A stretch of 39,952 bases of DNA from IMG/VR virus record IMGVR_UViG_2880384115_000007. One strand, written 5' to 3'. The translations under genes and the position numbers were made by a program. A model generated the notes under the pieces. It saw only the letters and a program-made list of their open reading frames with translations, was not told where the DNA came from and ran no database searches. Source of the stretch: a virus (Duplodnaviria; Heunggongvirae; Uroviricota; Caudoviricetes). Position 1 is the first letter of the stretch. Each line of letters begins with the position of its first letter. Below, piece after piece: positions 8,141-27,996 of this stretch.

Positions 8141-8163
8141 AAACAAGGCCGCGAAAGCGGCCT

Positions 8164-8175
8164 GTGACATGTCAC
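8164..8175. repeat. Perfect 12-bp palindrome GTGACATGTCAC, copy 1 of 3
   Basis: Identical palindrome also at 25721..25732 and 27985..27996; this copy overlaps the stop codon of 8172..8468 at a convergent junction. Confidence 0.8.
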
Positions 8176-8468
8176 GCTCTTTTTCTGAATGATAGCCATT
8201 CGAAAAATGATGACATTCCACCGCAGACAATAGCAAAGATGATCCCACCAAAGAAGAGAAGGCCAGCCTGCCACCACTCCCACCGCCATACATCCACAGC
8301 GCCAACCATACCAACAATCGCTCCAACAAATGGAATATAGCTCACGATGAAAGCAATGGGGGCTGCAATTATCCAGTGCAATCCCCACCATGATTCAAGC
8401 CCAGCCATAATTGCTGCCAACTGAAAAAGACCAACGACGATATAAACAATGAATCCTATAGCTTGCAT
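8172..8468 (-). CDS. Small integral membrane protein (hypothetical; superinfection-exclusion candidate)
   Basis: 98 aa, almost entirely hydrophobic with Trp-rich loops; AGGTGA RBS; sits between internal virion genes and the moron island. Confidence 0.5.
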   Translation of the reverse strand: MQAIGFIVYIVVGLFQLAAIMAGLESWWGLHWIIAAPIAFIVSYIPFVGAIVGMVGAVDVWRWEWWQAGLLFFGGIIFAIVCGGMSSFFEWLSFRKRA

Positions 8469-8663
8469 GTAGTCACCTATTTACCCAGTAAAAATCAGAG
8501 GCCTCCCCTCAATAAGGCTTGCAACAAGAACTACTCCCTGCACAACAAAGATGAACCAGCAAATAGCTTGAGTCTGAGGGTTAAGAAAATATTTGTAGCG
8601 GTCAATAAATAACAGCCCACCAGAAATTATCACACTCAAAATAATTAAAAACACAACACTTCC

Positions 8664-11138
8664 TTATTGCGGAGTGACATCCTGAGGTCGCCACCAGTAT
8701 GTCTGGTTAAACTCTTTCTTCGAACGTTGCTCCATTTTACGCAAATAGCCTGGTGAAAAATACTCCTGCATCTGGTTAAAGATCATGTGATCAAGAGCTG
8801 CCTTCAAGTACCAGAGATTCGCACCTGGCATCAGCCCTTTCCCAAGTTTCACCAGATCACCACCAGTCTGCTCGTTCTTCCCTTCCACAGCATTTAATGG
8901 TATGCCCTGAGCTATCTTCACTACGTCATCAACCAGGCCAGCTACCGGGCCAAGCATCGACGCCAGCGCGCCGCTTCCGTACCTAGTGTGATCTGACAAT
9001 AAAAAGTCACCGTAAAGGCCAAGACCACCACCTTTCAGTAGAGCACCAAGCCAAAATTTAGCAGCATCTTCTCCTGTCATCTCGCGAGGATTACGACCAG
9101 ACGCAAGGTCGTTAAGTTGCTGCGACAAAGCGCCAAGAATGGTCGTACTGGCAATAAACGTCGCAATATATGCCGCACGCCCACCAGCAGACGGCATACC
9201 CATAGCGCGTGACCAGTGACGCATAACCACCGAGATAGGGAACGATTTAAACAGGAAAACACTTCTCGTTAATTCACCTTTCCATGTTCCACGCTGAATA
9301 CCAGAACCGGTTATCAGTTGCTCACGTGCTCCCGGTGTAATAACAGCCATATCAACTTCTTCAGTTACGGCACCGAGCAGTTTACGCATTGCCTCAAATT
9401 TCACGCGTTCAGGCTCACCAAGATGTTTAACTGCTGAATCAGGGATACGCATAATGCTTTCCGGTGTCAGCATCGTATTATTACCGTTCCCCCAGTCCTC
9501 CTGTTGCGCCAGCTTCCATACGCTCCAGTCTGTGTCAGTAATCCCTTTACTTTTCAGGATACGAAAATCAGAGTCATCGAGGCTACGAAGGTCTGGTGTC
9601 CGTGACACTACTTCTCCCAGGCTTCCCATCATGGTTACGCCATAGGCGCGCTTGTGCGCATCTGACCATGCTGTAAGCCCACTGGCACGCATTACCGCCG
9701 TTGCCGCCCAACGAGACACAGACGGCCCCATATTATCCATCGCCCAGCGGTTAACGCTGCCAAGTAGAGATTCCATCGCCAGGCCAGCGCGGCGCGCCCG
9801 CGCAAGCTCAGTACGGTTCGTTGGGTCCATAGCTTCAAGCTGGTTGCGGAATAACTGGTTCATTGGAAGGTTGGTCACCTTCGCAGACAGATACATGGTT
9901 CCAAGATCAGAGAACGATGATAGCAACGCGGATCCGAGTCTGCTGGCAACCAGCCAGTTGCGGATATTGTCAGACCATCGCGCGATGTGCGGATTCGCTA
10001 CAGGCTGTGTCTTTCCGGAAATAAAGTTGTACAGATTCTCTGTGTTGTTCGCCAGCCGCTCGACTTTACCGGTTTTACTCGGGTTAGCTGTTGCCGTTTC
10101 TGCCTTCACCTGATCAAGAAGAGAGCGGAAAACATGATCGGGGTTTGGGCCATATGTTTCCACCAGTGCAATATCTTTACTGATACCTTCCAGGTAACCG
10201 ACCATGATTTCCCATAGAGAGCGATCGCCATAAAGTTGCTGATATTGCAGATATGAATCTGCATCTTTGAAATGTATCTGTCGTGATGCATTACCACGGT
10301 TAGCACGTGCGCCGGAAATTCGCATGCCGGTATCAGTAAGCTTATTCAGCCCACCAGTGGCGATTGTGTTATAAGCTTCTCCAAGAAATGCAGACAACTC
10401 GGCATCGTTCATCAGTTGTCCATCGGCTCGGATATAATATTTGCGATCCAGCTTACCTATAACATCGCTAACCCACTTATCCTTTGATACCGCCCCAACC
10501 TTTTCCATAGAATGATGTTGAGGGATCCCCCAGTTTTCGAGATAGCCAATGTCCCCACCAGCATCATTAAACCGGCGGCGCAGTAGCTCTGTCACTTCTC
10601 TCCACGCCTTAGCACCTTTTCTTGCTTTAGCATTGCCAGTATTTTGCCCCCGCATTTCATATACCAGGTCACGTACGCCCGCTTCATCTTCAAACAGACC
10701 AAAAAAGCGAGGATCAACTGCTTCGAATGCCTCCTGCAATTGACTCAATGCATAATCACGGGTGGCTTTTGTTCTGGATTCAACAGAGAGGAAATTCGAT
10801 TTACCGTCTGCATTAAAAGCAATAGTACGGTTAAGAGCGCCAAGTTTCCCATCAGCCCCTTGATAGCTATTGATAAATTTATCCAATCTCTGACGTGCGG
10901 CTATAGTGAGGGCCACACGACGTTTCTTTAATGCCGCTTCTCGCTGTAATTCTTCAGATGCCAATTGTGCTGCACGATATAGCCGCTCTGATTCGGAAAG
11001 TTGTCTCCACGACATCGGGTCATCACGAGCAATAGAGCGCATATTTCGATAAATGCGGTCTTCAATGTTCTGTATTTCTCGCGCCGTTAACGTGCGCTGC
11101 GCCGCCTGCTGGACCGCTTGTATACATTCCTGTCTCAT
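8664..11138 (-). CDS. Large internal virion / DNA-ejection protein
   Basis: 824-aa ORF last in a run of three large genes after the tail tubular genes, matching the internal-core gene positions of T7/epsilon15-type podoviruses. Confidence 0.55.
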   Translation of the reverse strand: MRQECIQAVQQAAQRTLTAREIQNIEDRIYRNMRSIARDDPMSWRQLSESERLYRAAQLASEELQREAALKKRRVALTIAARQRLDKFINSYQGADGKLGALNRTIAFNADGKSNFLSVESRTKATRDYALSQLQEAFEAVDPRFFGLFEDEAGVRDLVYEMRGQNTGNAKARKGAKAWREVTELLRRRFNDAGGDIGYLENWGIPQHHSMEKVGAVSKDKWVSDVIGKLDRKYYIRADGQLMNDAELSAFLGEAYNTIATGGLNKLTDTGMRISGARANRGNASRQIHFKDADSYLQYQQLYGDRSLWEIMVGYLEGISKDIALVETYGPNPDHVFRSLLDQVKAETATANPSKTGKVERLANNTENLYNFISGKTQPVANPHIARWSDNIRNWLVASRLGSALLSSFSDLGTMYLSAKVTNLPMNQLFRNQLEAMDPTNRTELARARRAGLAMESLLGSVNRWAMDNMGPSVSRWAATAVMRASGLTAWSDAHKRAYGVTMMGSLGEVVSRTPDLRSLDDSDFRILKSKGITDTDWSVWKLAQQEDWGNGNNTMLTPESIMRIPDSAVKHLGEPERVKFEAMRKLLGAVTEEVDMAVITPGAREQLITGSGIQRGTWKGELTRSVFLFKSFPISVVMRHWSRAMGMPSAGGRAAYIATFIASTTILGALSQQLNDLASGRNPREMTGEDAAKFWLGALLKGGGLGLYGDFLLSDHTRYGSGALASMLGPVAGLVDDVVKIAQGIPLNAVEGKNEQTGGDLVKLGKGLMPGANLWYLKAALDHMIFNQMQEYFSPGYLRKMEQRSKKEFNQTYWWRPQDVTPQ

Positions 11139-11143
11139 TTAAT

Positions 11144-12946
11144 TTAACCTCTCAAGAAACACGCCACAGCGACATCAAACAGGCTGGAATCCTGTATTGC
11201 CTGCTCACTTTCCCTGTTCGCTTCATCCAGTACTTCACGCGCGCTGCGCGATTGTGGATTACCATCATCATCCAGCACGGTGATTATCATGTCAGGTGAT
11301 TCAAGCAGCGAGTCTTCAGCTATGCGCAGATCAATATCTCCTGCCTGATCCGCCATCATTTTTTGTTCTGCCTGTTGCAATATTTTATCAGGCTCAAAAG
11401 GAGCTACTTCGTCTGGCGTCCTGACCTCTGCTGTTTTATAGAATGAAACAGCCTGAGCATTAAGTTCACTTTCTGCCTGCTGTCTCCGAGCCAGTTCTGC
11501 TCGAGCTTCAAAAAACTGACCGCCAGGCTCATGCGGTGCCAACGCGTTACGAGAAAATTCCAGGCGTTCTTGTGCCTGCCGGATTCGTTGGTCAATATCG
11601 CGAAGTCTGGCCTGTTTATCTGATCGAGCACGAGACAAAGCTTTACCGCTACCGGTTGGCTCTTCTGCAAGAATTTGTGCACGCTGTTCAGTGAGATTTT
11701 CAATAATTCGTTGGCTATTAGCGATTTCAGACTGGTAAACCTGTCTATCTCCACGCGGCAAAAGCTGCGCGGCCTGTTCTTCAAGCAACCGATTTTCTAT
11801 AGCGCGCGCCGTTACTCCATCATCTACAGATGACAGAGCCTCATTAACTGCCTGAGACAGCAGACTCTTGCGCCCAGGAATTTCACTGAAAGATGCAGAC
11901 TCAACAATGCTGGCAACGTCTACAGGTCTCCCCTGGCTAACATCAGACATAGCTTTTCGCAGAGCCTGAATGTGAGAATTGCGCGAAAGCACGTTGATCG
12001 GCACGCCGGGAGAAATATCAATTTCAGCATGATGAGCGGCATTCGCCGCCAGTGCAGCATCGACATCAACTGGTGAAAAATTGGGGGTGCTTGTAGCCTC
12101 ACCGCGAGAGTTAATAAATCTGCCGACACCACCAAACGCCACCCCAAGAACAGCATCAATAGCAATTGCCTGTCGATCCAACACATCATACTGGTTAGCC
12201 ATTTCGTTATAGCCACCATCACGAAGCGTTTTTGCAGTAAGCCCACGCTGTGCCATACCGAACGCAATATTTGTACCTGCGGCATAGGCAATATCTGGCG
12301 TTGCACGTACTGCTGTTGCTGCGGCGCGTCGCACTGAACTTTCACCCGTCCGCGCAAGCTGAGCCGCCACACCTTCCGCCAGCGCACCACCAGCACGTAA
12401 CCAGAGACTCATAGGGATCAGTGTTCCGGCACCAGCAGTAATACCCTGCACTAATCCCGCTTCCTGCGCCGTCCTGAAATCAACACCCTGTGCTGTCAGC
12501 CGTTCAAACTCAGAAAAACCCTGTAGCGAAGTTACCGCCGCAGCACCTCCGACCGGACCACCGAGCGTTGTACCGATAACAGCCTGCCCGCCCATATCGA
12601 ACAACCCATAAAGAACCTGCCCGGCGGTTCCGGTTGTCGCGGCATCAGGCGTCAGCCGCTTAACCTGCTGCTCTGCTAGTTTTCTCTGCTCGGCAATGTA
12701 TGAAACTGAAGTGTCATTGAGCGAGGTGTTTTCGTTAACAAACCGAGCAATCGGGGATACGATTTTATCCATCCCTGCCCAGAGCAACTGATCTGGCTTT
12801 GCCACCAGCCCGGAGTACAAACCAGACAATGCCGCTCCTACAGCATTGTCGAAAAAACCAACATCGCTGTTAAAGCCAACTGGATTTGATGCTGCTTCGT
12901 CAAGCTGCTGATTCTGGTTTACTGGATTAAGGCCAAAGTAACTCAT
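11144..12946 (-). CDS. Internal virion / ejection protein
   Basis: 600 aa, Ala/Gly-rich with C-terminal coiled coil; overlaps the upstream gene stop. Confidence 0.55.
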   Translation of the reverse strand: MSYFGLNPVNQNQQLDEAASNPVGFNSDVGFFDNAVGAALSGLYSGLVAKPDQLLWAGMDKIVSPIARFVNENTSLNDTSVSYIAEQRKLAEQQVKRLTPDAATTGTAGQVLYGLFDMGGQAVIGTTLGGPVGGAAAVTSLQGFSEFERLTAQGVDFRTAQEAGLVQGITAGAGTLIPMSLWLRAGGALAEGVAAQLARTGESSVRRAAATAVRATPDIAYAAGTNIAFGMAQRGLTAKTLRDGGYNEMANQYDVLDRQAIAIDAVLGVAFGGVGRFINSRGEATSTPNFSPVDVDAALAANAAHHAEIDISPGVPINVLSRNSHIQALRKAMSDVSQGRPVDVASIVESASFSEIPGRKSLLSQAVNEALSSVDDGVTARAIENRLLEEQAAQLLPRGDRQVYQSEIANSQRIIENLTEQRAQILAEEPTGSGKALSRARSDKQARLRDIDQRIRQAQERLEFSRNALAPHEPGGQFFEARAELARRQQAESELNAQAVSFYKTAEVRTPDEVAPFEPDKILQQAEQKMMADQAGDIDLRIAEDSLLESPDMIITVLDDDGNPQSRSAREVLDEANRESEQAIQDSSLFDVAVACFLRG

Positions 12947-19914: not shown

Positions 19915-20250
19915 TTACACGCCCAGTTCTTTACGCTTATCTGCGATCTTCTCGCGGAGCGTTTCTGCTTTGGCGTTATGGTGTGGCTTCTCGTTAAAGA
20001 GCAATTCGTACTCTTCACGGAGCTTATCCAGTTCACCATCATCTGACACATCGTTGATGATTTTGGTGCTGGTTGCTGCCATAGACACCTTTCCTGCTAC
20101 CTTTGCTTTTGCCTGTCTGGCTGCATCGTTAACAGGTTCCAGTGCGCTACCAGGCTCACCTTCGTATTCGATTTCTGCCCCCTCCGGCCACAGAGTGTTA
20201 TGGATATGAGAGAGGCGCAGAACGCGGTATCTTGGTTTCTCACCTGACAT
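19915..20250 (-). CDS. Hypothetical virion protein (decoration or connector candidate)
   Basis: Start at ATG 20250 with AAGGTGA RBS; about 111 aa, charged C-terminal helix; followed by stem-loop 19881..19898. Confidence 0.4.
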   Translation of the reverse strand: MSGEKPRYRVLRLSHIHNTLWPEGAEIEYEGEPGSALEPVNDAARQAKAKVAGKVSMAATSTKIINDVSDDGELDKLREEYELLFNEKPHHNAKAETLREKIADKRKELGV

Positions 20251-20260
20251 CAATATCACC

Positions 20261-20698
20261 TTAACCAGTTACTTTTGAGCGGATCGGATACGGCGTATTG
20301 GCATCAACATCAAGACTGATACCAGCAGTGAATTCGCCAGCCGTTAGTGGGCCAGTTGCGACGGAGTAGTTAACACGCAGATATCGCTGAACACCGGCAG
20401 GCACCTTTGCAGAAACAACTCGTTTACCTGCTGTCAGGGCGGTCTTTGCCAGTGCGCCACTATCATAAATAGTGGTCCATGAGCTGTTATCCTCACTCGT
20501 CTGCAACTGGATGTTTACAGTTGCATCACCGCTTGCCGCGGCGGCTGTGTTAACCAGCGCCCAAAACTCAAGCGGGTAACCCACGCCGATATCACGACGT
20601 TTTCCGTCAATTGGACCGAGATCGATTACGTCAGTAGAAGCCGCGGTATTCGTAACCGCCTGAGCTTCGGAGAACATCAACAGTTTGTCGGTGATCAT
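20261..20698 (-). CDS. Hypothetical capsid-associated protein (decoration candidate)
   Basis: 145 aa, Ala/Thr/Gly-rich, directly downstream of the major capsid gene and its stem-loop. Confidence 0.45.
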   Translation of the reverse strand: MITDKLLMFSEAQAVTNTAASTDVIDLGPIDGKRRDIGVGYPLEFWALVNTAAAASGDATVNIQLQTSEDNSSWTTIYDSGALAKTALTAGKRVVSAKVPAGVQRYLRVNYSVATGPLTAGEFTAGISLDVDANTPYPIRSKVTG

Positions 20699-20749
20699 CT
20701 TCTTTCTCCATTAGTGGGTCTGTTACGACCCACAGGTTAATAACAGGCG

Positions 20750-21742
20750 TTACACCACGCGGGCTTCTGTTTCCAGAAGCGCATCAGTCTCACGGATTGG
20801 TACACCACGGAATGAAGTCCACCACTCGCCTTCTGTCTCTTTTACGCTGATCGCCAGAGATGTTTTCTCCAGAGATTGCAGATCAAGCGCCTGGCCTACA
20901 GTGCGGTTCATGTAGAACACCGGGCTGCCCATGCCACGGTTTGGAATGCGATGCAGTGCTTTAACCATCAACTTCGCAATATTTGCTGCAGAGGAAGGTT
21001 CTGAAAGATTGCTGACATCGATGTTTGCAATGCGAACAACATAACGCCAGTCACGGAGAGCAAGCCCGTTGTCCCATTTGTAATGGGTACGGTAGCCTTC
21101 GTACTTGCCGCCATCCGCATCTTTCAGTGTCACCTGGCCTTTATCTTCCATCTGGATGCCAGCCTTCTGCCCTTTCGGGAAGATGCCATGCACGGTGTTT
21201 TCGCCCCACACCACTAACCAGATTGAGGTGTTATCTGTACCCGTGCCACCAGCATCAATGATGTTCTGAGCATTACCCGCAGACAGGCTGGAATAGCGGG
21301 AGGACAGTCCCATAAACTGCTGAGGGTTAACGCTGGAATCACCATAAAACAGCGTCTGCGCCATCTGCTGATTCATCGCTTCAATAAATGCGCGGTCTTC
21401 AGACAGGCGGAATTCGGCGGTATTGCCGTTCAGATCAGCCAGTGACCTATCGACTTCAGCATAGGTTTCCAGCATGCCAACGGAATCGGTTACCTGCACT
21501 GTGGTTGATTTGCTTGGCTGTACGCCATAGTTCAGCAAACGCCAGGTAGCTGAAGGTAAACCAGAACGAATGGTGGTTCGGTGTCCGGTAGGAAGGTTCC
21601 CTTCGACAAAAGGCATATCCTGAAGGATCGGGTTAGTTTGACCGAGAAGCTCGATAATCTTATCGACTTTCCCGTTTGGATCGACGCGCTTACCCCAGTC
21701 AGCCAGCGTTAGCGCAGTTAAGCCTTTAACAGCCATTGTCAT
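20750..21742 (-). CDS. Major capsid protein
   Basis: 330 aa with AGAGAGGA RBS; follows portal and scaffold; stem-loop (20714..20733) downstream typical of highly expressed capsid genes. Confidence 0.7.
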   Translation of the reverse strand: MTMAVKGLTALTLADWGKRVDPNGKVDKIIELLGQTNPILQDMPFVEGNLPTGHRTTIRSGLPSATWRLLNYGVQPSKSTTVQVTDSVGMLETYAEVDRSLADLNGNTAEFRLSEDRAFIEAMNQQMAQTLFYGDSSVNPQQFMGLSSRYSSLSAGNAQNIIDAGGTGTDNTSIWLVVWGENTVHGIFPKGQKAGIQMEDKGQVTLKDADGGKYEGYRTHYKWDNGLALRDWRYVVRIANIDVSNLSEPSSAANIAKLMVKALHRIPNRGMGSPVFYMNRTVGQALDLQSLEKTSLAISVKETEGEWWTSFRGVPIRETDALLETEARVV

Positions 21743-21750
21743 TTCCTCTC

Positions 21751-22446
21751 TTATTTGCCATAGAGCACTTCGGCCGCACTACGCTGGCCTTCATTACCAC
21801 CGGTGACCATGCCATCTTCAGACATCGCCTTTCCGATTTTCACGAACGTCTTGACCAGATCAGGGTGATTACCCAGTCCGGTGGTGTTCAGATATTCTTT
21901 GAGCTCAGGTGTCCCGAACTGGTCAAGCGCACGCTGCGCGGCGCTAAGGTTAGAAATCAACTTGTCGCCACCGATTTCTTTGTCAGCTTTTACATCCGCA
22001 GCCCACTGCTCGGTTGTTTTCTGCCAGGCTTCTGCCTGGCGCTGCTGAACACCTGCCAGAATCTTCGGATAAGCATCAACCAGCTTTTGCGCTTGCTCGT
22101 TGGTCAGGTTAAGTTCTCGCGCCACCGGCTCGAATTCCTTCAACGCTTCTGTATCCAGCTCTACGCCTTCGGCAGCCTGAAACTCGTACTTCTCAGGCGC
22201 ACCCTCTGGTTTATCGCCGTCCTTTTTTTCATCCTGCTTATCGTTTTCAGGCTTTTTGTCATCAGCAGGTTTATCGCCATCAGCAACAGGTTGTGGCTTA
22301 TCACCTTCCTGTTGTGATGGATCACCAACTGGAGCAGGGTTATCACCTGCAGGAGCTGACGGTTCTGACGCAGCCGGAGCTGCTCCACCATCGACTGGTT
22401 GCTCATTGCAAAGACGGCTATACAGCAAACGCTCAAATAAATTCAT
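21751..22446 (-). CDS. Scaffolding protein (putative)
   Basis: Start at ATG 22446 with AGGAG RBS; acidic Pro/Asp/Lys-rich N-terminus then helical region; located between portal and capsid. Confidence 0.5.
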   Translation of the reverse strand: MNLFERLLYSRLCNEQPVDGGAAPAASEPSAPAGDNPAPVGDPSQQEGDKPQPVADGDKPADDKKPENDKQDEKKDGDKPEGAPEKYEFQAAEGVELDTEALKEFEPVARELNLTNEQAQKLVDAYPKILAGVQQRQAEAWQKTTEQWAADVKADKEIGGDKLISNLSAAQRALDQFGTPELKEYLNTTGLGNHPDLVKTFVKIGKAMSEDGMVTGGNEGQRSAAEVLYGK

Positions 22447-22448
22447 GA

Positions 22449-22745
22449 TCACTCCTGTTCACTGGCCTCTTTGGCCATCTTCAAATACTGTTCAGGGCAA
22501 TGCGCCATAACGCGCTGAAACAGTTCCAGCGCCAGATTGCGTTGCCCCTCATTAAATGCCATTGCCATAGCGTCCATCGGTGAGATAGCGGAAAACACAC
22601 GGCCTTTCTCCAGCACCGACCAGACAACGCGACGCCCTTGTTCACTGCTCATGACAAAGCGAATGTCATCAATTTCACGCTGCGCCATGTCACGTTGCTT
22701 ACGGGCGTTTTCTTCTTTCAGTTGATCGTCTTCGTAATCTGTCAT
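22449..22745 (-). CDS. Hypothetical small head-assembly protein
   Basis: 98 aa charged helical protein coupled between portal and scaffold genes. Confidence 0.4.
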   Translation of the reverse strand: MTDYEDDQLKEENARKQRDMAQREIDDIRFVMSSEQGRRVVWSVLEKGRVFSAISPMDAMAMAFNEGQRNLALELFQRVMAHCPEQYLKMAKEASEQE

Positions 22746-24421
22746 TGTGATTGCCCACCCTGACCACTAACTGCATTCGCCATAGCTGTCAAAACACTCG
22801 GATCCGAAGTTTTAGCTTCGCTTAGCGTCTTGGCACCCTGTGCCGCCGCCATCCCCACCGCCATCATTTGTTGTTGCTGTTGCTGCTGTGCCCGTTGCTG
22901 GCGAGCCTGCTCAACCTGTTCCTGCGGAACAATGACGGTTGGAGACACTCCGGACATATCAGCGAATGCATCGATCGCCTGATCAACGTTGAGTTTGTCG
23001 AGAGCTTCTGGTTTCGCTTGCGCAAGTTGACCAATGAAGTTAACCGTGGACGCCAGACTGGACAGGCCGATAGACTTCTGCGCCTGAGCCATGACGGAAA
23101 TGTATTCGACCTTCAGGGGCATACCTTCCATCACGTCTGGCGGTGGCGGCAGCATGTTTTTACGCACCATCATCGAGAAAGCGCGGTCAATGAGAGGATT
23201 AAGACATTCGTCGTTCAGGCGCTCCAGAACCGGCCCCAACATCAGAAGTTTTTCTTCTTTCATTTCGATCACCGCTTCAACAGGCATCGAGCGGGTATTG
23301 ATGTTCTGCAACATCATGAACAGATCGACAAAGTAGGCGCTGTTAATGATTTGACGAGTGTCCTGAATGTCTGCTACCAAATCTGCTGTACTGGGGTTAA
23401 CCAGATAAGCAGGCCTGAAGCCATCCTGACCAGTAATCTGATCGATATACGTGATGTCGCCAGGAAGAAGGGAGGCGCGCTGATTCTTGAGGGAAGTCGG
23501 AGCAACCATCGGCGGATTGGTGGCTTTATCAATCAACTGCGACTTGCGCTTCTGGAGAAGCTGCAATGCCTTAACAGGTCCAAGCGCCAGCATACCCGGG
23601 CATGATGATCCATAAACATCTTCGCCGTTAACTTCCCAGCGCGGAGCCATAATTGGAAACTCATCAAATCCGGACTCACGCAACAACTTGTCGTTATCGC
23701 CACCAACCTCGTAATAAACCGATTTGAATGGCTTGTTCTTGCTATCCAGCTTCGATGTATCGCGGTCAATGTTCGGGTAAACCGAATGCATCACGTCAAT
23801 CCACTTCTCGTAGGTGCCGCTTTCCCACATGCTTTTTACGGATTCGCTGACGTTATTTAGCCCGAACTCCTGAACAAGCTGACGAACAGTCATAGAGAAC
23901 TTGCGAAAACAGGTGTCCACACTGCCACGAGGTGAGTTAGCCAGGTAGTAACTGCCTATCGGGAATGGCATTGTGCGAATGATGTCCTCGTCATCCTCCA
24001 GCACCGCCATTGCACCAGTGCTGTATGTGCCGAGGCTTCCGTATAACTGCGGAAGAGACTGGTAGAGATTCGACTTATTGAACATATCGTTCATGCGGTT
24101 CTGCACCGCCTCGAGCCACAACTTAACAGGACCATAATCCATCATTTCAGGATCTGGCGTAGCCAGGCGAAACCACGGACGCGCAGGGCTTGTGATGCCT
24201 GACATCATGCCGCTGGCGAGAGTGCGCGCCGCCATAGTCCCGGTCGAATCAATAATGCGTGTATTGCGTCGATCGTTACGGTTGACCTCAGAAGTCAGAA
24301 AGCGGGAACCACGCGGGTTGATGTAATCACTCAACTCGCGCCAGTGCGGCTCGAACGACTGACGCTCGCTTTCAAGTTGTGCGAACTGTTTGTTCAATCG
24401 CTCTTTAGTTGTTTCCGCCAT
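22742..24421 (-). CDS. Portal protein
   Basis: 559 aa; size and position (after terminase, before scaffold and capsid); Gln/Ala-rich C-terminal tail common in podoviral portals. Confidence 0.75.
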   Translation of the reverse strand: MAETTKERLNKQFAQLESERQSFEPHWRELSDYINPRGSRFLTSEVNRNDRRNTRIIDSTGTMAARTLASGMMSGITSPARPWFRLATPDPEMMDYGPVKLWLEAVQNRMNDMFNKSNLYQSLPQLYGSLGTYSTGAMAVLEDDEDIIRTMPFPIGSYYLANSPRGSVDTCFRKFSMTVRQLVQEFGLNNVSESVKSMWESGTYEKWIDVMHSVYPNIDRDTSKLDSKNKPFKSVYYEVGGDNDKLLRESGFDEFPIMAPRWEVNGEDVYGSSCPGMLALGPVKALQLLQKRKSQLIDKATNPPMVAPTSLKNQRASLLPGDITYIDQITGQDGFRPAYLVNPSTADLVADIQDTRQIINSAYFVDLFMMLQNINTRSMPVEAVIEMKEEKLLMLGPVLERLNDECLNPLIDRAFSMMVRKNMLPPPPDVMEGMPLKVEYISVMAQAQKSIGLSSLASTVNFIGQLAQAKPEALDKLNVDQAIDAFADMSGVSPTVIVPQEQVEQARQQRAQQQQQQQMMAVGMAAAQGAKTLSEAKTSDPSVLTAMANAVSGQGGQSQ

Positions 24422-24435
24422 TTCAATGACTCCGG

Positions 24436-24642
24436 TTACTGACCAAGCAGCGTTTTACCGCTGGTATTAGCGGTTGATGTGTCGCCCTGAGAACCGGTAA
24501 GCAGCGTAGAACTACGACCAGCAGCAGCGCGACGGCGACGTGTTTCTTCGTCGCGGGCATCAACAACGGCGGCATCCTGCTCCTGTGGTGCTGCCTGAAC
24601 TTCTGGTGTTGCAGGCACTGATGGTGAGCTACCCATGCACAT
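24436..24642 (-). CDS. Small hypothetical protein upstream of portal
   Basis: 68 aa with GGAG RBS 8 nt before ATG; Ala/Thr/Ser/Arg-rich; ends 14 bp before the portal start. Confidence 0.35.
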   Translation of the reverse strand: MCMGSSPSVPATPEVQAAPQEQDAAVVDARDEETRRRRAAAGRSSTLLTGSQGDTSTANTSGKTLLGQ

Positions 24643-24732
24643 ATCAATGACTCCGTACGCAATTAAATTATTACCAATTTAACCACATATGATTTATTTA
24701 TCGTAGAAGGTTGACATTTGACGCGCGAATTA

Positions 24733-24747
24733 TTACCTTTCAGGTAA
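24733..24747. promoter_or_regulatory. TTACC-N5-GGTAA dyad in the portal-operon promoter region
   Basis: TTACCTTTCAGGTAA; TTGACA hexamer at 24711..24716 and conserved box AACCACATATG at 24681..24691 nearby. Confidence 0.55.
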
Positions 24748-25069
24748 CTAAAGAGCTCATTCCGGCTACTAACCTGACTGGCTTGTCGTTAAATTGAACA
24801 GGTGGAGTGAGATTTTATTTTGAGCAGTACGGCGTATGGCACATGCGCCGATAGCGGTCTGGATACGTTTAAGGGGCACCCTCCCTTGCTCGGGCAAACG
24901 AACCAGGTAGCCGGAATGTGCAAGTCGAGCGGTTTTATTCCGCGCACGGGGATTCACCATCCTGGCGATTCGGTGTGACGCCTCGGAAGAGACGAGGGTA
25001 CAACGATGAGAGCATTTATGGAGCCGCGACAAAGTGTGGCGCCTTAACAGGCTAAGTGCTCTCAGCGTT

Positions 25070-25146
25070 GTGGTATTAGCTCAGTTGGACAGAGCAACCG
25101 CCTTCTAAGCGGTTGGTCGCAGGTTCGAATCCTGCATGCCACGCCA
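25070..25146 (+). tRNA. tRNA-Arg (anticodon UCU)
   Basis: 77-nt cloverleaf folded by hand: 7-bp acceptor stem (one GU), D-arm GCTC/GAGC, anticodon stem ACCGC/GCGGT with loop CTTCTAA (anticodon TCT), T-arm GCAGG-TTCGAAT-CCTGC, 3' CCA encoded. Confidence 0.85.
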
Positions 25147-25189
25147 GAATCACGCCTAAGGACCGTGATACCAGAAGTTCCAGGTGCTT

Positions 25190-25231
25190 GGCGGTGATGG
25201 TTTCCCTTGAAGGACTATCACCGCCCTTTTT
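25190..25231 (+). terminator. Stem-loop terminator downstream of the tRNA
   Basis: 9-bp stem GGCGGTGAT / ATCACCGCC with 18-nt loop followed by five T. Confidence 0.5.
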
Positions 25232-25309
25232 ACAGCAGGACGCCATTGCGATGACTTCATGCTGTAAACCCGTACAGCCACGGAAGGCATAACTCATTGC
25301 TTCCAGTTC

Positions 25310-25333
25310 GCCCGGTTCGCCGGGCATTTTTTT
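25310..25333 (+). terminator. Rho-independent terminator (UUCG tetraloop)
   Basis: GCCCGG-ttcg-CCGGGC followed by seven T; ends about 10 nt before the RBS of 25345..25716. Confidence 0.65.
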
Positions 25334-25344
25334 AAGGTGAGATT

Positions 25345-25716
25345 ATGAACGACCAGCAAATCGAAAAAGAAATCGTTGAGAAAGGCAAAACGGCACCGCG
25401 CGTTACGCCAGACCATATCGAAGGCATTATTGCTCAGGAGGCATATTTCACAGCAGAAGATGGTGCCTTTGGCAAAGCCATAAAAGCGAAACATACTGGC
25501 GGAGAGGTAAACTACCAGCCGCACGAATCACTTTCTCTGCTGACGTTCTGCGTCCTGGTGCTGCGCAACGGCTTCACCGTCACCGGAGAGAGCGCCTGTG
25601 CAAGCCAGGAAAACTTTGATGCAGAAATTGGTCGGAAGATTGCCCGGCAGAATGCTGTAAACAAAATCTGGATGCTCGAAGGTTACTTGCTGAAGCAGAA
25701 GCTAAGCGAGCAATAA
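25345..25716 (+). CDS. Conserved phage protein, possibly Gp49/Sf6-gene-66-like family
   Basis: 123-aa ORF with AAGGTGA RBS; contains the block LRNGFTVTGESACASQENFDAEIGRKIARQNA that I associate with that family (from memory, unverified). Confidence 0.5.
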   Translation: MNDQQIEKEIVEKGKTAPRVTPDHIEGIIAQEAYFTAEDGAFGKAIKAKHTGGEVNYQPHESLSLLTFCVLVLRNGFTVTGESACASQENFDAEIGRKIARQNAVNKIWMLEGYLLKQKLSEQ

Positions 25717-25720
25717 CACC

Positions 25721-25732
25721 GTGACATGTCAC
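25721..25732. repeat. Perfect 12-bp palindrome GTGACATGTCAC, copy 2 of 3
   Basis: Starts 5 nt after the stop of 25345..25716 and just before the bidirectional terminator; identical to copies at 8164 and 27985. Confidence 0.8.
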
Positions 25733-25735
25733 AAA

Positions 25736-25763
25736 CAGCCAGCCGATGAGCTGGCTTTGTTTT
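25736..25763. terminator. Bidirectional terminator between convergent genes
   Basis: Stem AGCCAGC / GCTGGCT with 6-nt loop, flanked by AAACA and TTGTTTT. Confidence 0.6.
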
Positions 25764-25806
25764 ATCCTCATCAGAGGATATCAACGACATTATCCCCACC
25801 AGCGGA

Positions 25807-27282
25807 TTAAGCATATGGATCGTAATCTGTGATGGCCTTGCCTTGCTGGTTCTGCTGCCCGGGAATTCGCAGACGCTTCGACACAGGGAACGCAAACGTC
25901 AGCAGTAGCGCATCGCCTTTACCAGGAGAACGCCCAAGCCGCTCCTTGATATCTTCCTTCGGTTCGATAACGATTTTACCGTCCACTCGAACTTTGTACT
26001 CTGCCGCAGACAGGTCGTCCGCTGTTTCCTGGTCATCCAGCATGCCGCCCAGCCTCAGCCATGTCTTGCATGAGTTGAACATCTCCCCACGCTTGTTGAG
26101 CATCTGCGGGTCAGTAGACGCGCCACCGAACGGAACAAGTTGCCATGTACGACCCCAGCCATCACCGATTGACTTCAGACCAGTTCCGTAACCGAAGTCG
26201 ATGAACACCGCGTCAGCCTGGTACTGGTCTTCAAAGTCAGCGATACGCTTCGCCATAATCAGATCGTCGGTGGTCTTGTTACCAGTCCATAGCACCTTAC
26301 TGTGCAGCCCCTGCCGCAGGTATATCACCGCGTCATCAACGCCTGAATATGCCGGGTCAACACCGATTATCACCGGAGCATGCGCCACCTGCGCAGCGGT
26401 TACCACCCGTTTCATTGCCTCATCAGTAAGACCGGTAGGGATAAACTGCAATTCAGATGCATCAGGGAATATGCCGCGCACACGGATTTTAACGAAGTCG
26501 CTGTCTTCCCCGTAGTCATCAACCCATTTCTGCAACTGCTGTTTGTTAGTGCCTTCCACCGTCCGGCTGTCAATCTGCGCAGTTTTCCAGCGGTGTTTAT
26601 ATTTGCGGAAACATTCACGGAATCGCCCGGTATTACGCGTCGGGTTTCCGAACGCCACCCAGATAATCTCAGTGTCTTCGTCCGTTAGCGCACCTTCGGC
26701 AACTTCCCACACCAGATCCGCAATATTCGACGCTTCATCGAATACCACGATGATGCGTTTGCGCTCGTTGTGTAGTCCGGCGAATGCCTCAGTGTTGTGC
26801 TCAGACCAGGGGATTGCGTCAGCTCGCCACCGCTTGTCGTGTCCAGGGTCATTGCTGTACATCGCGGTAGCTGTACAGGTAAACCAGTCTTTCGTGATAG
26901 CAAGGTTTGACCACTTGATAATTTCCGGCCAGGTCTTCGTTCGTAGCTGGTTGTCGGTGTTGGCGGTCACCACGACCTTACAATCCTCGCAAGTGGACAT
27001 GCCCCAGTTGATCAGCATTGAGATGAATGCGGATTTACCAATACCGTGACCCGAAGCACGTGCCAGCATAAGCGGCTGATAGCGCGTCTCTGGATTCTGC
27101 AGGTGATCACGTATCTCTCGGAACGCATCAGCCTGCCACTTACGTGGGCCGGTAGCATGTGCCAGTTCAGTCCCCTCTTCCCCCCACGGGAACGCATAGA
27201 GGGCATAGCCAAGCGGATCGTGAGTGAACCCTGCAATATCCTCGATCAACTGCTCTTCAGGAGATAACGCTGTATCTGTCAC
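25807..27282 (-). CDS. Terminase large subunit
   Basis: 491 aa; N-terminal ATPase region with Walker-A-like GHGIGKS and C-terminal nuclease-like region; GTG start overlapping the small-subunit stop. Confidence 0.8.
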   Translation of the reverse strand: MTDTALSPEEQLIEDIAGFTHDPLGYALYAFPWGEEGTELAHATGPRKWQADAFREIRDHLQNPETRYQPLMLARASGHGIGKSAFISMLINWGMSTCEDCKVVVTANTDNQLRTKTWPEIIKWSNLAITKDWFTCTATAMYSNDPGHDKRWRADAIPWSEHNTEAFAGLHNERKRIIVVFDEASNIADLVWEVAEGALTDEDTEIIWVAFGNPTRNTGRFRECFRKYKHRWKTAQIDSRTVEGTNKQQLQKWVDDYGEDSDFVKIRVRGIFPDASELQFIPTGLTDEAMKRVVTAAQVAHAPVIIGVDPAYSGVDDAVIYLRQGLHSKVLWTGNKTTDDLIMAKRIADFEDQYQADAVFIDFGYGTGLKSIGDGWGRTWQLVPFGGASTDPQMLNKRGEMFNSCKTWLRLGGMLDDQETADDLSAAEYKVRVDGKIVIEPKEDIKERLGRSPGKGDALLLTFAFPVSKRLRIPGQQNQQGKAITDYDPYA

Positions 27283-27875
27283 TGATTACCATCCTGACGT
27301 TCTTTGAGTCGCTTCCTGGCTGCTGCTATGCGATCAGCAATTGTCACATTCACATTAACATCCAGACGTTCTTTGAACGCGTTGACATCAACATGCTTAC
27401 CAATCAGCTCAAGGTTCTTCACCTTGTCAGGCCATTTAATTTTTTTGAGGATTGTCTCTATCGAATCCTCGTTCATGTTCATGATGGTCGATGACAGATC
27501 AAAGCCACTAAGCGTAGTGCGCCAGATTTTCGGCCACTCACGGATTGGTTTAAGGCTCCCATCGTCGTTGAGGATGTCGATCACGTCCATCTGGTCGATC
27601 TCCACCAGGCGCATGAGAACGTAATCAGCACTGACGCGCATTCGTTTGTTGCGCTCCTCCATCAACTCGGCAATCCGTTTTTGAATGCGTTCATCGCGCA
27701 TCATGACGCTGGCTTTAACTGCCGCTGTATTTGGGGAGAATCCTGCGTTAATCGCTGCCTGAGTCTGGTTTTCAGGCGTTTTGATGTATGACTGGCAATA
27801 AGCCTCCTGCATTGCTGTTAGTGGCTTAAATTGCGTTGATTTGCGTTTATAGGTTTTAGGTTCAGCAGGCATCAT
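27279..27875 (-). CDS. Terminase small subunit
   Basis: Start moved to ATG 27875 (RBS GGTGG upstream); conserved block YCQSYIKTPENQTQAAINAGFSPNTAAVKAS typical of small terminase subunits; the track's longer N-terminus would put the palindrome at 27985 inside its RBS. Confidence 0.65.
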   Translation of the reverse strand: MMPAEPKTYKRKSTQFKPLTAMQEAYCQSYIKTPENQTQAAINAGFSPNTAAVKASVMMRDERIQKRIAELMEERNKRMRVSADYVLMRLVEIDQMDVIDILNDDGSLKPIREWPKIWRTTLSGFDLSSTIMNMNEDSIETILKKIKWPDKVKNLELIGKHVDVNAFKERLDVNVNVTIADRIAAARKRLKERQDGNQ

Positions 27876-27984
27876 AACCACCGTGGTAATAGTTACCGTT
27901 TTGGTAATAGTACCATGCAAAATAAAGCCGCCATAGTTGGCGGCAGTATCCAAAACCGTCAAATTCATCATGCATAATCTACTC

Positions 27985-27996
27985 GTGACATGTCAC
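27985..27996. repeat. Perfect 12-bp palindrome GTGACATGTCAC, copy 3 of 3
   Basis: Overlaps the stop codon of 27993..28340 directly upstream of the terminase operon. Confidence 0.8.

What the first reader, a model, noticed from the sequence alone, without database searches (positions are those of the whole stretch)
8164..27996. Perfect 12-bp palindrome GTGACATGTCAC three times at module junctions
Identical copies lie at 8164..8175, 25721..25732 and 27985..27996; the last two share the 14-mer CGTGACATGTCACA. Each sits at a gene 3' end or module boundary: overlapping the stop codons of 8172..8468 and 27993..28340, and 5 nt after the stop of 25345..25716. Two of them close the plus-strand islands that interrupt the late operon; the third is immediately upstream of the terminase genes. 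Three copies of a specific 12-mer in 40 kb is far beyond chance. Possible roles: binding site for an unidentified regulator, transcriptional insulator between convergent units, recombination linker at mosaic joints, or packaging-related site.
Basis: seen in the sequence. Interest (0 to 1): 0.6.

Follow-up and report, generated by a model that had tools for sequence, protein, structure and literature searches.

The report
Phage regulator's conserved 12-bp binding palindrome
The three identical palindromes are real and strongly conserved, and they belong to a previously undescribed pairing found in many unrelated phages: a small, uncharacterised DNA-binding-type protein whose gene usually ends inside one copy of the motif GTGAC-NN-GTCAC, with further copies at operon boundaries.

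Summary
Observation confirmed: GTGACATGTCAC occurs exactly three times (8164, 25721, 27985; expected 0.01). The window is a phiV10/epsilon15-like (Uetakevirus) prophage of E. coli. In eight such phages found by similarity, 22 of 24 homologous positions keep a perfect GTGAC-NN-GTCAC, although one flank of each site is highly variable. Each site lies 0-40 nt upstream of an intrinsic terminator, in the direction of the unit it closes.

The new result concerns copy A, which overlaps the TGA stop of ORF 27993-28331(-). This ORF encodes a basic 112-aa protein (phrog_536; no Pfam, NCBIfam or PDB match; weak ribbon-helix-helix signal plus a Cys-rich tail). The gene family and the motif travel together:
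- N15, phiKO2, ZF40 and a Vibrio phage each carry three copies.
- In 8 of 17 independent lineages the motif's TGA is the gene's stop codon.
- Twelve family-positive genomes hold 29 sites against 0.5 expected. Lambda, P22 and 60 kb of host DNA hold none.

Best reading: the palindrome is the cognate site of this protein, acting as a protein-reinforced transcription boundary. Binding and mode of action are inferred, not shown.

The motif equals the host matS site minus its central base. MatP binding and homology to MatP remain unproven.

The parts
27985..27996 (.). Palindrome copy A (GTGACATGTCAC). It overlaps the TGA stop of the gp55-family gene and lies at the start of the leader upstream of terS.
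   Evidence: Exact match and sequence context. Conserved at the homologous place in 8 of 8 Uetakeviruses, with 1 mismatch in phiV10. The upstream flank is conserved in 38 of 38 occurrences, the downstream flank in only 13 of 38.
25721..25732 (.). Palindrome copy B. It lies 4 nt after the stop of the Gp49-family gene 25345-25716(+) and 4 nt before that gene's terminator, on the far side of the terminator from terL.
   Evidence: Conserved in 7 of 8 Uetakeviruses; PAT1 has centre AG and TL-2011b has lost it. The terminator-side flank is conserved in 16 of 16 occurrences, the gene-side flank in 7 of 16.
8164..8175 (.). Palindrome copy C. It overlaps the TGA stop of the last late-operon ORF, 8172-8468(-), and abuts the late-operon terminator.
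   Evidence: Conserved in 7 of 8 Uetakeviruses; Kp4865-1 keeps only the half next to the terminator. The terminator side is conserved in 14 of 15 occurrences, the gene side in 6 of 15.
27993..28331 (-). Gene for the 112-aa gp55-family protein (phiV10 p55, epsilon15 p49, N15 gp46; phrog_536). It is the proposed binding protein. It is basic (24 K+R against 14 D+E), has a predicted strand-helix-helix core, and carries a C-terminal CxxC...CxC...C motif.
8146..8163 (-). Intrinsic terminator hairpin of the late virion operon (AGGCCGCTTTCGCGGCCT followed by TGTTTTTAAC), immediately 3' of copy C.
   Evidence: Terminator scan. The equivalent is annotated as a terminator in phiV10. The hairpin is conserved, with loop and stem variants, in relatives.
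25737..25756 (+). Intrinsic terminator (AGCCAGCCGATGAGCTGGCT followed by TTGTTTTATC) for the plus-strand island gene. The same hairpin faces terL on the other strand, where the T-run is poor.
   Evidence: Terminator scan. The equivalent is annotated in phiV10 at 2238-2257. Relatives show compensatory stem variants (GCCCGCG...CGCGGGC).
27927..27944 (-). Terminator-like hairpin with T-run (GCCGCCAACTATGGCGGC TTTATTTT) in the leader, 40 nt downstream of copy A and upstream of the likely terS start.
   Evidence: Terminator scan. Present in the relatives that share this leader type and absent where another gene is inserted after copy A.

Best explanation
The 12-bp palindrome is one instance of a wider motif, GTGAC-NN-GTCAC. 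This motif is the cognate DNA site of the phage's own small protein, encoded by ORF 27993-28331(-) (the phiV10 p55 / N15 gp46 family).

Proposed mechanism:
- A symmetric dimer of this basic protein binds the two GTGAC arms on double-stranded DNA. The protein looks like a ribbon-helix-helix core with a zinc-ribbon-like tail. The central two bases are not read.
- One site is built into the 3' end of the protein's own gene, so the protein and at least one site are inherited together. Two more sites lie at the ends of other transcription units.
- In this prophage each site lies 0-40 nt upstream of an intrinsic terminator, in the direction of the unit it closes. These units are the early operon ending in gp55, the late virion operon, and the plus-strand gp49 island.
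- The most likely action is therefore a protein roadblock that reinforces these boundaries. It would also limit read-out from the protein's own operon, giving autoregulation at its own stop codon.

What is shown: the motif is conserved, and it is linked to the gene family. What is inferred: direct binding, the fold, and roadblock as the mode of action.
For: Selection on the motif:
- Eight Uetakeviruses were retrieved by similarity, not by motif. 22 of 24 homologous places keep a perfect GTGACNNGTCAC, although overall identity falls to about 77% and one flank of each site is replaced repeatedly.

Link to the gene family:
- The motif overlaps or abuts the gene's stop in Uetakeviruses, N15/phiKO2/KpLi5, ZF40, a Yersinia P2-like phage, a Mu-like phage, lambdoid contigs and five metagenomic members at about 25-35% identity.
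- Among 17 lineages whose context was obtained without using the motif, 8 use the motif's TGA as the stop codon, 10 have a site within 40 nt of the stop, and 14 have at least one site. The chance of a site in an 80-nt window is about 8e-5.
- Twelve family-positive genomes (506 kb) hold 29 sites with a 2-bp spacer, against 0.48 expected. Spacers of 0, 1 and 3-8 bp give 0-1 each. Lambda, P22 and 60 kb of host DNA give 0.
- Two independent 14-mer scans of IMG/VR agree. 40 of 45 loci (AT type) and 26 of 28 loci (TG type) that contain a family ORF have the site within 45 nt of its end.

Symmetric dsDNA recognition:
- The arms are invariant. The centre is free (AT, TG, AG, AC, GC, CG) and shows no fixed orientation.
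- The RNA hairpin is worth only -1.2 kcal/mol.

The protein looks like a DNA binder:
- Its net charge is about +10.
- One distant family member has a weak precomputed hit to PF10723.

Boundary anatomy:
- Terminators lie directly 3' of all three sites, and two of the equivalents are annotated in phiV10.
Against: - No binding data exist.
- A constitutive roadblock at site A would also block read-through into the terminase genes, and no late promoter was found downstream of it.
- Outside Uetakeviruses the sites are not next to terminators. They lie inside repA (N15), inside cII (ZF40), next to Shine-Dalgarno sequences, or in AT-rich gaps.
- Site B has the opposite arrangement relative to late transcription.
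- Three family members have no perfect site in the DNA available.
- Co-occurrence would also arise if another factor bound the motif and the gene were merely linked to it.
Confidence: 0.5

Rival explanations
1. Same protein and same sites, but positive control. The protein loads at the motif and lets RNA polymerase read through the terminator just downstream (a Q/qut-like or processive antitermination logic), or it activates a nearby promoter. This would switch on the late genes at site A and extend late transcripts past site C towards the tailspike and lysis genes.
For: - The gene is the last early gene, directly upstream of terS. That is the position held by late regulators in many phages.
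- Site A is followed by a leader terminator before terS.
- Site C is followed by a terminator that late transcripts must pass to reach the tailspike and lysis genes, unless those genes have their own promoter.
- One distant relative has two tandem sites in an AT-rich gap about 1 kb upstream of its holin. The Vibrio phage K308 has a site 20 nt upstream of terS.
- GTGACA is itself a 5/6 match to the -35 hexamer.
Against: - At site B the motif-then-terminator order faces the island gene, not late transcription.
- In several relatives the next gene's Shine-Dalgarno follows the motif by 0-1 nt, leaving no room for a promoter.
- In lambdoid contigs the gene and site lie upstream of xis/int, not of late genes.
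- N15-like phages have a separate Q-like late regulator.
- There is no similarity to Q, RinA or Ogr families.
Confidence: 0.17
2. A host protein binds the motif, most obviously MatP, whose matS site is GTGAC-RNY-GTCAC. The phage would use it to tether or organise its DNA, or to unload MukBEF. The adjacent phage gene would be only a linked passenger.
For: - The 12-mer equals matS with the central base removed. Both 6-bp halves (GTGACA / TGTCAC) fit the matS consensus (citing Mercier 2008).
- All phages carrying the motif infect Enterobacterales, Vibrio or Aeromonas, which by established knowledge are the MatP-bearing clade.
- Two Vibrio-associated elements carry true 13-bp matS-consensus sites.
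Against: - The spacing is 12 bp, not 13. No genuine matS occurs in the window even with one mismatch.
- In 12 genomes the 3-bp spacer occurs once, against 29 occurrences of the 2-bp spacer.
- Centres such as TG, AG and CG do not follow an R/Y rule.
- A host-factor site has no reason to sit at the stop codon of one particular phage gene across podo-, sipho- and myoviruses.
- Published work finds matS avoided in prophages.
Confidence: 0.1
3. The element works in RNA. The transcribed motif (GUGAC-NN-GUCAC) lies at the stop codon and directly 5' of terminator stems or Shine-Dalgarno sequences. Bound by the phage protein or by another factor, it would control termination, translational coupling or mRNA 3'-end stability.
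For: - The site sits at the stop codon in a constant register in 8 lineages.
- It abuts terminator stems or the next gene's GGAG.
- A palindrome reads the same in transcripts from either strand.
Against: - The hairpin has only 4 bp and -1.2 kcal/mol.
- The arms never show compensatory change across very distant phages, as protein-read DNA would and a structural RNA usually would not.
- There is no Rfam family at the sites.
- The predicted RHH-type fold is a dsDNA-binding fold.
- Some sites lie inside genes on the non-coding orientation, for example in N15 repA.
Confidence: 0.08
4. There is no protein function. The palindrome is a short conserved 'linker' that serves only as microhomology for recombination between mosaic phage genomes. 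Alternatively it is a scar or target of gene-cassette insertion.
For: - One flank of every site is hypervariable: 12, 8 and 7 sequence clusters at A, B and C.
- Different genes are inserted exactly after site A.
- Kp4865-1 has a joint at the dyad centre of site C.
- The phage encodes RecE/RecT-type recombinases.
Against: - Neutral linkers would decay. Here 10 arm bases are invariant from Uetakeviruses to Mu-like and N15-like phages, while the two centre bases drift.
- Linkage to one gene family and to its stop codon is not explained.
- 12 bp is short for RecET-type exchange.
- Any conserved functional island becomes a mosaic joint by default.
Confidence: 0.07
5. It is a packaging signal, such as a pac site or a terminase small-subunit binding site.
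For: - Copy A and the K308 site lie just upstream of terS.
- The phiV10, Tyrion and SPN1S records are linearised at or near copy A.
Against: - The record ends coincide with the stop codon of the last gene, which is an annotation choice.
- The motif occurs in cos phages with lambda-type or P2-type terminases and in a Mu-like phage. In N15, ZF40 and lambdoid contigs it lies far from any terminase gene.
- Three dispersed pac sites would give three packaging series.
Confidence: 0.02

Closest known systems
MatP / matS (Ter macrodomain organiser of E. coli and relatives)
   Same: - Inverted GTGAC arms; the window's 12-mer is matS without its central base.
- A handful of dispersed sites per replicon.
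- MatP binds through a ribbon-helix-helix domain preceded by a basic helix. hhalign aligns gp55 residues 9-60 to MatP 71-123 in the register expected for that domain, at 30% identity over 47 columns.
   Different: - The site is 12 bp, not 13. The centre is unconstrained rather than RNY.
- The protein has no four-helix bundle or coiled coil. It has a Cys-rich tail instead.
- The sequence and profile similarity is not significant: P 0.23, no Pfam MatP hit.
- The sites sit at gene ends of a phage, not in the Ter region.
Phage and plasmid ribbon-helix-helix regulators with short dyad operators (Arc, Mnt, CopG, omega, ParG, RHH antitoxins)
   Same: - A small basic protein with a predicted strand-helix-helix core.
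- The best structural neighbours are RHH antitoxins, CopG/Arc/MetJ-family proteins and TraM.
- A short symmetric DNA site.
- The gene and its site are inherited as one unit.
   Different: - The operator lies at the 3' end of the gene, overlapping its stop codon, not in its promoter.
- Additional sites lie tens of kilobases away.
- A C-terminal zinc-ribbon-like domain is present.
- No match to any curated RHH family.
Lambda Q with its qut site and tR' (late antitermination module)
   Same: - The regulator gene lies immediately upstream of its DNA site, followed by a terminator and then the late genes. Site A and its leader terminator have this layout.
   Different: - No Q-family similarity.
- No recognisable promoter overlapping the site.
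- The other two sites close transcription units rather than open them.
- N15-like phages carry both a Q-like gene and this family.
ParB/parS-type centromeres placed just downstream of the binding protein's gene
   Same: - A site directly 3' of the gene that encodes its presumed binder.
- Extra copies dispersed in the replicon, as with the four SopB sites of N15 and phiKO2.
   Different: - No ParA-type partner in the window.
- N15 and phiKO2 centromeres are a different 18-bp palindrome, GTGCGACCACGGTCGCAC.
- Most carriers are integrating prophages that need no partition system.
'Boundary' or 'linker' sequences at mosaic joints of lambdoid phages (modular evolution theory)
   Same: - A short conserved sequence exactly at the junction between conserved and exchangeable modules.
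   Different: - Here the sequence is a strict dyad under selection in unrelated phage types, and it is tied to one gene family. This points to a molecular function beyond serving as homology.

Membership tests
matS (MatP binding site) | 13-bp sequence GTGAC-R-N-Y-GTCAC | tested here: not met
   All three copies are 12 bp with a 2-bp spacer. A search for GTGACRNYGTCAC in the window, allowing 1 mismatch, gave no match. The consensus is taken from PMC3603311.
matS (MatP binding site) | Confined to the Ter macrodomain of the host chromosome | tested here: not met
   The sites lie in a prophage inserted next to guaA/guaB and xseA. By established knowledge of the E. coli map this is outside Ter. The same motif also occurs on free phage and linear-plasmid genomes.
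matS (MatP binding site) | Bound by MatP | not testable with these tools
   Needs EMSA or ChIP.
MatP protein family (for ORF 27993-28331) | Matches Pfam MatP (PF06303) and MatP_C (PF17414); four-helix bundle, then RHH, then coiled coil | tested here: not met
   No Pfam hit at E up to 10. hhalign P 0.23. The protein is 112 aa and has a Cys-rich tail instead of a coiled coil.
Ribbon-helix-helix DNA-binding proteins (for ORF 27993-28331) | Strand-helix-helix core that dimerises | tested here: inconclusive
   - The AF2 monomer (pLDDT 66-69) gives a coil followed by two helices at residues 23-75.
- Foldseek gave nothing significant.
- No RHH Pfam family matches the window protein.
- One distant member has a weak precomputed PF10723 hit.
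Intrinsic (rho-independent) terminator | G+C-rich hairpin followed by a T-run | tested here: not met
   The palindrome itself folds at only -1.2 kcal/mol and has no T-run. The true terminators are the adjacent hairpins at 8146-8163(-), 25737-25756(+) and 27927-27944(-).
Q/qut-type late antitermination module | Q-family protein; site overlapping a constitutive late promoter; terminator downstream | tested here: inconclusive
   A terminator downstream of site A is present. There is no Q-family similarity. Only a weak promoter-like match uses the palindrome as its -35 element.
pac / terminase recognition site | Located in or next to terS and specific to one terminase type | tested here: not met
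   Only copy A is near terS. The motif is present in lambda-type cos (N15), P2-type and Mu-type phages and lies far from terminase genes there.
N15/phiKO2 SopB centromere sites | 18-bp palindrome GTGCGACCACGGTCGCAC | tested here: not met
   The annotated phiKO2 partition sites have this different sequence. The GTGAC-NN-GTCAC sites are at other positions.
Mosaic-joint boundary sequence | Conserved short sequence with conserved DNA on one side and unrelated DNA on the other in related phages | tested here: met
   Flank census (conserved fraction and number of sequence clusters on the variable side): A 38/38 against 13/38, 12 clusters; B 16/16 against 7/16, 8 clusters; C 14/15 against 6/15, 7 clusters.

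The most novel reading that the evidence does not exclude
The protein and motif form a phage-borne counterpart of MatP/matS. An RHH protein sharing ancestry with MatP's DNA-binding core reads matS-like sites that are one base pair shorter, and so orthogonal to the host system. It loads in cis from a site built into its own stop codon. By binding about three sites per genome it organises or marks the phage chromosome, for example by bridging sites or by excluding host SMC/MukBEF-type complexes, rather than acting as an ordinary gene regulator. This could also point to a mobile-element origin of MatP/matS.
Probability: 0.12. Interest if true: 0.85.

Novelty: new variant of a known kind. Interest (0 to 1): 0.62.

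Why it matters
A protein annotated only as 'hypothetical' or, without evidence, as 'transcriptional regulator' now has a precise and testable DNA target. The pairing is conserved in podo-, sipho- and myoviruses of enterobacteria and vibrios, including the model phages epsilon15, phiV10 and N15.

- It offers an entry point to the unknown late-gene and boundary control of epsilon15-like phages.
- It explains why gene cassettes are exchanged at exactly these three points.
- It presents an unusual arrangement, with the binding site inside the regulator's own stop codon, that invites a mechanistic study.
- The near-identity to matS raises the question of cross-talk or shared ancestry with the host chromosome-organising system.
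- Practically, GTGAC-NN-GTCAC next to a phrog_536 gene is a usable annotation signature.

Tried and rejected
- **Chance:** rejected.
- **A degenerate repeat family in the window:** none found. Only one 2-mismatch hit and one spacer-5 look-alike at 30468.
- **Extended homology around the three copies:** none beyond the shared 14-mer.
- **cos or genome end:** the phiV10 record is cut inside copy A, but exactly after the last gene's stop codon, so this is an annotation choice.
- **Known operator types (CRP, LexA and others), checked by eye:** the spacing does not fit. This rests on my own knowledge and was not tested further.
- **Lambda Ea8.5:** a positional analogue upstream of xis in lambdoid contigs, but BLAST finds no similarity and lambda has no motif.
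- **P22 NinX:** the same length (112 aa) but unrelated.
- **N15/phiKO2 partition sites:** a different sequence.
- **Rfam:** nothing at the sites.
- **Protein family and structure-sequence searches:** nothing in Pfam, NCBIfam, PADLOC or PDB sequence searches.
- **Foldseek against the PDB:** nothing significant.
- **MatP homology:** a profile comparison gave the expected register but no significance. My database search for MatP relatives returned only near-identical E. coli sequences and added no profile depth.
- **Literature:** no paper in the library contains any of the motif variants in a phage context. The epsilon15 genome paper (PMC2698709) is not held. The ZX5 paper says nothing on this.
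- **Covariation between the centre dinucleotide and the predicted beta-strand residues:** no clear pattern, and centres differ even within one genome.

Full report
**1. The observation**

GTGACATGTCAC occurs exactly three times in the window, at 8164-8175, 25721-25732 and 27985-27996. The expectation is 0.01, and no shuffle reached three. Relaxing to two mismatches adds only one unrelated hit, so this is not the tip of a degenerate repeat family.

All three copies share the 14-mer CGTGACATGTCACA; copy 1 carries it on the minus strand. The stop codons of ORF 8172-8468(-) and ORF 27993-28340(-) are the TGA inside the palindrome. Copy 2 begins 4 nt after the TAA of 25345-25716(+).

**2. What the window is**

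The window is a phiV10/epsilon15-like podovirus prophage (genus Uetakevirus) of E. coli, inserted between yfgI and guaA. It is 100% identical over 20000-29000 to strain AR_0055. Similar prophages occur in 494 of 5426 complete E. coli genomes.

- The late operon runs on the minus strand: terS, terL, portal ... gp20.
- It is interrupted by two plus-strand islands.
- Island 1 holds a tRNA-Arg and a Gp49-family gene.
- Island 2 holds isrK and C4 antisense RNAs, a Bro-N antirepressor and small ORFs.

**3. The palindrome is under selection**

Eight Uetakeviruses were retrieved by similarity, not by motif: the window, phiV10, TL-2011b, Enterobacter phage Tyrion, Salmonella phages VB_ST_E15, PAT1 and SPN1S, and Klebsiella phage Kp4865-1. 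22 of the 24 homologous places carry a perfect GTGAC-NN-GTCAC, 21 of them with centre AT, although genome identity falls to about 77-82%.

The exceptions are informative:
- phiV10 site A has one mismatch.
- PAT1 site B has centre AG.
- TL-2011b has lost site B along with a different island.
- Kp4865-1 site C keeps only the half next to the terminator.

At each site one flank is conserved and the other is replaced again and again:

| Site | Conserved flank | Variable flank | Clusters on the variable side |
|---|---|---|---|
| A | upstream (gene), 38/38 | downstream, 13/38 | 12 |
| B | terminator side, 16/16 | gene side, 7/16 | 8 |
| C | terminator side, 14/15 | gene side, 6/15 | 7 |

(All.) After site A, relatives carry one of three things: the window's leader, an SOS-box plus umuD-like gene, or a small ORF whose Shine-Dalgarno follows the motif directly.

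**4. Local anatomy**

Each copy lies just upstream of an intrinsic terminator, in the direction of the transcription unit it closes:
- Site C: late-operon stop, palindrome, then hairpin 8163-8146(-) plus T-run, with no gap.
- Site B: gp49 stop, palindrome, then hairpin 25737-25756(+) plus T-run, with a 4-nt gap.
- Site A: gp55 stop, palindrome, 40 nt, then hairpin 27944-27927(-) plus T-run in the leader before terS.

The phiV10 authors annotated the equivalents of the first two terminators but not the palindrome. The palindrome is not itself a terminator. As RNA it folds at only -1.2 kcal/mol.

**5. The link to a gene family**

A scan of IMG/VR for the 14-mer returned many contigs with no other similarity to the window. 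In these the palindrome still sat at the 3' end of a homologue of ORF 27993-28331(-), for example upstream of xis/int in lambdoid contigs.

This ORF is phiV10 p55 / epsilon15 p49, a 112-aa protein:
- It is basic, with 24 K+R against 14 D+E.
- Its only family match is phrog_536, labelled 'transcriptional regulator'.
- It has no Pfam, NCBIfam, PADLOC or PDB sequence match.
- The family is small: 210 representatives at 50% identity among 1.8 billion.

More distant homologues in annotated phages show that the motif generalises to GTGAC-NN-GTCAC:

| Phage | Sites | Notes |
|---|---|---|
| Pectobacterium myovirus ZF40 | 3, all AT centre | one lies 2 nt after the gene's stop |
| N15, phiKO2, KpLi5 (linear-plasmid siphoviruses) | 3 each, all GTGACTGGTCAC | one overlaps the gp46/gp45 stop, one is inside repA, one is upstream of the antirepressor operon |
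| Vibrio phage K308 | 3 | one lies 20 nt upstream of terS |
| Yersinia P2-like phage | 1, GTGACGCGTCAC | overlaps the homologue's stop |

I then fetched the genomic context of eleven very distant family members chosen only by protein similarity:
- In five (P0335, P0368, P0400, P0412, P0346) the motif again overlaps the TGA stop.
- In a Mu-like phage it lies within the last 40 nt of the gene.
- In P0383 it lies inside the gene, and in P0330 it lies about 4.5 kb downstream of the gene as a tandem pair.
- Three have no perfect site in the DNA available.

Counting lineages whose context was obtained without the motif:
- 8 of 17 use the motif's TGA as the stop codon.
- 10 of 17 have a site within 40 nt of the stop.
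- 14 of 17 have at least one site.

The chance of one site in an 80-nt window is about 8e-5.

**6. Controls**

- In 12 family-positive genomes (506 kb) the 2-bp spacer occurs 29 times against 0.48 expected. Spacers of 0, 1 and 3-8 bp occur 0-1 times each, so base composition is not the cause.
- Lambda and P22, which lack the family by tblastn, and 60 kb of AR_0055 chromosome contain none. This host sample is small. It excludes a REP-like abundance, not rare copies.
- A second, independent IMG/VR scan with the N15-type 14-mer CGTGACTGGTCACG reproduced the link. 26 of the 28 loci containing a family ORF have the site within 45 nt of its end, compared with 40 of 45 for the first scan.

**7. What kind of recognition**

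The ten arm bases are invariant from Uetakeviruses to Mu-like phages. The two centre bases vary (AT, TG/CA, AG/CT, AC/GT, GC, CG), differ even within one genome, and have no fixed orientation relative to the gene. That is the signature of a symmetric dimer reading two half-sites on double-stranded DNA. It is not the signature of an RNA structure, where compensatory change would be expected.

The protein's predicted core (residues about 22-65) has strand-helix-helix topology, preceded by a basic helix and followed by a CxxC...CxC...C tail.

The structural evidence is suggestive only:
- AF2 models are mediocre, with pLDDT 66-69.
- Foldseek finds nothing significant.
- One distant member has a weak precomputed hit to PF10723. 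From memory this is an RHH-clan family; I did not verify it here.

I treat the fold as likely but unproven.

**8. The matS resemblance**

The host MatP site is GTGAC-RNY-GTCAC (PMC3603311 citing Mercier 2008). The window's 12-mer is that sequence without the central base. MatP binds through an RHH domain preceded by a basic helix.

With a 222-sequence family profile, hhalign aligns gp55 residues 9-60 to MatP 71-123 in exactly that register, at 30% identity. The P-value is 0.23, so homology is not demonstrated.

- The window has no true matS.
- The 13-bp spacing is essentially absent from family-positive genomes.
- The exceptions are a matS-consensus 13-mer in Vibrio phage K308 and another in a Vibrio-like island carrying family member P0393.

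I therefore do not file the site as matS. I keep MatP binding as a minor rival, and shared ancestry as the most novel reading not excluded.

**9. How it most likely works**

- *Shown:* the motif is a selected cis-element, and it is genetically coupled to this gene family.
- *Inferred with moderate confidence:* the family protein binds it as a dimer.
- *Inferred with lower confidence:* in this prophage it acts as a boundary element.

Under the boundary model, bound protein directly upstream of three terminators would stop polymerases at three points:
- the early-to-late junction;
- the end of the virion operon, facing the antirepressor island;
- the end of island 1, facing terL.

Binding over its own stop codon would also give feedback on its own operon.

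The main difficulty is that a block at site A should also prevent read-through into terS, and I found no late promoter downstream of it. The opposite sign, antitermination or activation, is therefore a serious rival. The anatomy at site A and site C fits it. The anatomy at site B, and in lambdoid and N15-like contexts, does not.

Why the motif's TGA is so often the stop codon remains unexplained. Possible reasons are cis-loading of the nascent protein, autoregulation through non-stop transcripts, or simply the ORF running on until the motif.

**10. Rejected readings**

Rejected readings are a packaging site, an RNA hairpin, the N15 centromere, an Ea8.5 or NinX relationship, and chance. Details are under 'tried and rejected'.

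No paper in the searchable library mentions the motif in phages. The original epsilon15 genome paper could not be read, so prior mention there cannot be excluded.

**11. Verdict**

It is a conserved protein-and-site pair of unknown function with an unusual architecture and a striking likeness to matS. It is a new variant of a known kind (phage regulator plus dyad operator), of moderate-to-high interest, and directly testable by EMSA, ChIP-seq and Term-seq.

Noticed in passing
window 6158-6234 and 6259-6342 (+): Rfam isrK (Hfq-binding sRNA) and C4 antisense RNA lie directly upstream of the Bro-N antirepressor gene 6376-7101. This is a P1 immI-like c4/ant module inside the second plus-strand island. 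N15 has one of its three motif copies just upstream of its own antirepressor operon.
   Followed up: partly
window 25070-25143 (+): A tRNA gene (annotated tRNA-Arg in the identical E. coli prophage) lies in the first plus-strand island, between the portal-side genes and the Gp49-family gene.
   Followed up: no
window about 27885-27914 (-): Two direct repeats, GGTACTATTACC and GGTAACTATTACC, lie in the leader between the leader terminator and the likely terS start. They are conserved in relatives with this leader type and may be a terminase or regulator site. The long terS ORF (start 27971) probably begins further downstream, since the Pfam domain starts at residue 51.
   Followed up: partly
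L007, L008, L025, L036, L117, L123 and Kp4865-1 (L142 about 12709-12800): In these relatives an SOS box (TACTGT-N8-ACAGTA) with a promoter-like TTGACT, plus a umuD-like gene, is inserted immediately after palindrome A, between the gp55-family gene and terS.
   Followed up: no
L142 (Klebsiella phage Kp4865-1) about 32095-32125: Site C keeps only the right half of the palindrome (GTCAC) fused to the conserved terminator. This suggests a recombination joint at the dyad centre.
   Followed up: no
L001 (phiV10, DQ126339.2) positions 39101-39104 and 1-8: The GenBank record is linearised inside palindrome A (GTGA|CATGTTAC), and this copy has one mismatch. A feature called 'terminator' is annotated at the single base 39104.
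   Followed up: yes
L133 (Vibrio phage K308) 19491; L157 (island with family member P0393) 6972 and 287: GTGACACCGTCAC, a 13-mer that fits the matS consensus, occurs in a Vibrio phage and in a Vibrio-like integrative island that both encode family members. L157 also has GTGACTCCGTCAC. Published work reports that matS is avoided in prophages.
   Followed up: no
L144-L146, 14923 and 14946: Two tandem sites (GTGACACGTCAC and GTGACGTGTCAC) lie 23 bp apart in an AT-rich gap about 1 kb upstream of the holin genes, in a prophage type encoding distant family member P0330. The arrangement looks like a regulatory region.
   Followed up: partly
L154 (family member P0324), just after the stop at 1323: There is no perfect site here. 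Instead an inverted repeat, GCGTGACCGG ... CCGGTCACGC, has arms about 36 nt apart, as if the two half-sites had been separated.
   Followed up: no
L034 1568, L062 9430, L076 3545: More distant epsilon15-like contigs (major capsid about 60% identical) carry the same 12-mer between the homologues of the capsid-cement gene and the next gene. This is inside the late operon, with no terminator nearby.
   Followed up: no
L012, L017, L022, L074, L115, L124; also L021, L030, L037, L056 and ZF40 (L132 7622): In other phage groups the 14-mer lies within coding sequence and encodes R-D-M-S. In one group this is the start of a gene (MRDMSQVLERW...). In the other it is the 3' part of a cII-like gene just upstream of the replication genes. 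Whether these copies are functional sites or coding coincidences is open.
   Followed up: no
window 30468-30482: GTGACAACTTGTCAC has the same arms with a 5-bp spacer. It is probably chance: one such hit in 506 kb of related genomes.
   Followed up: partly
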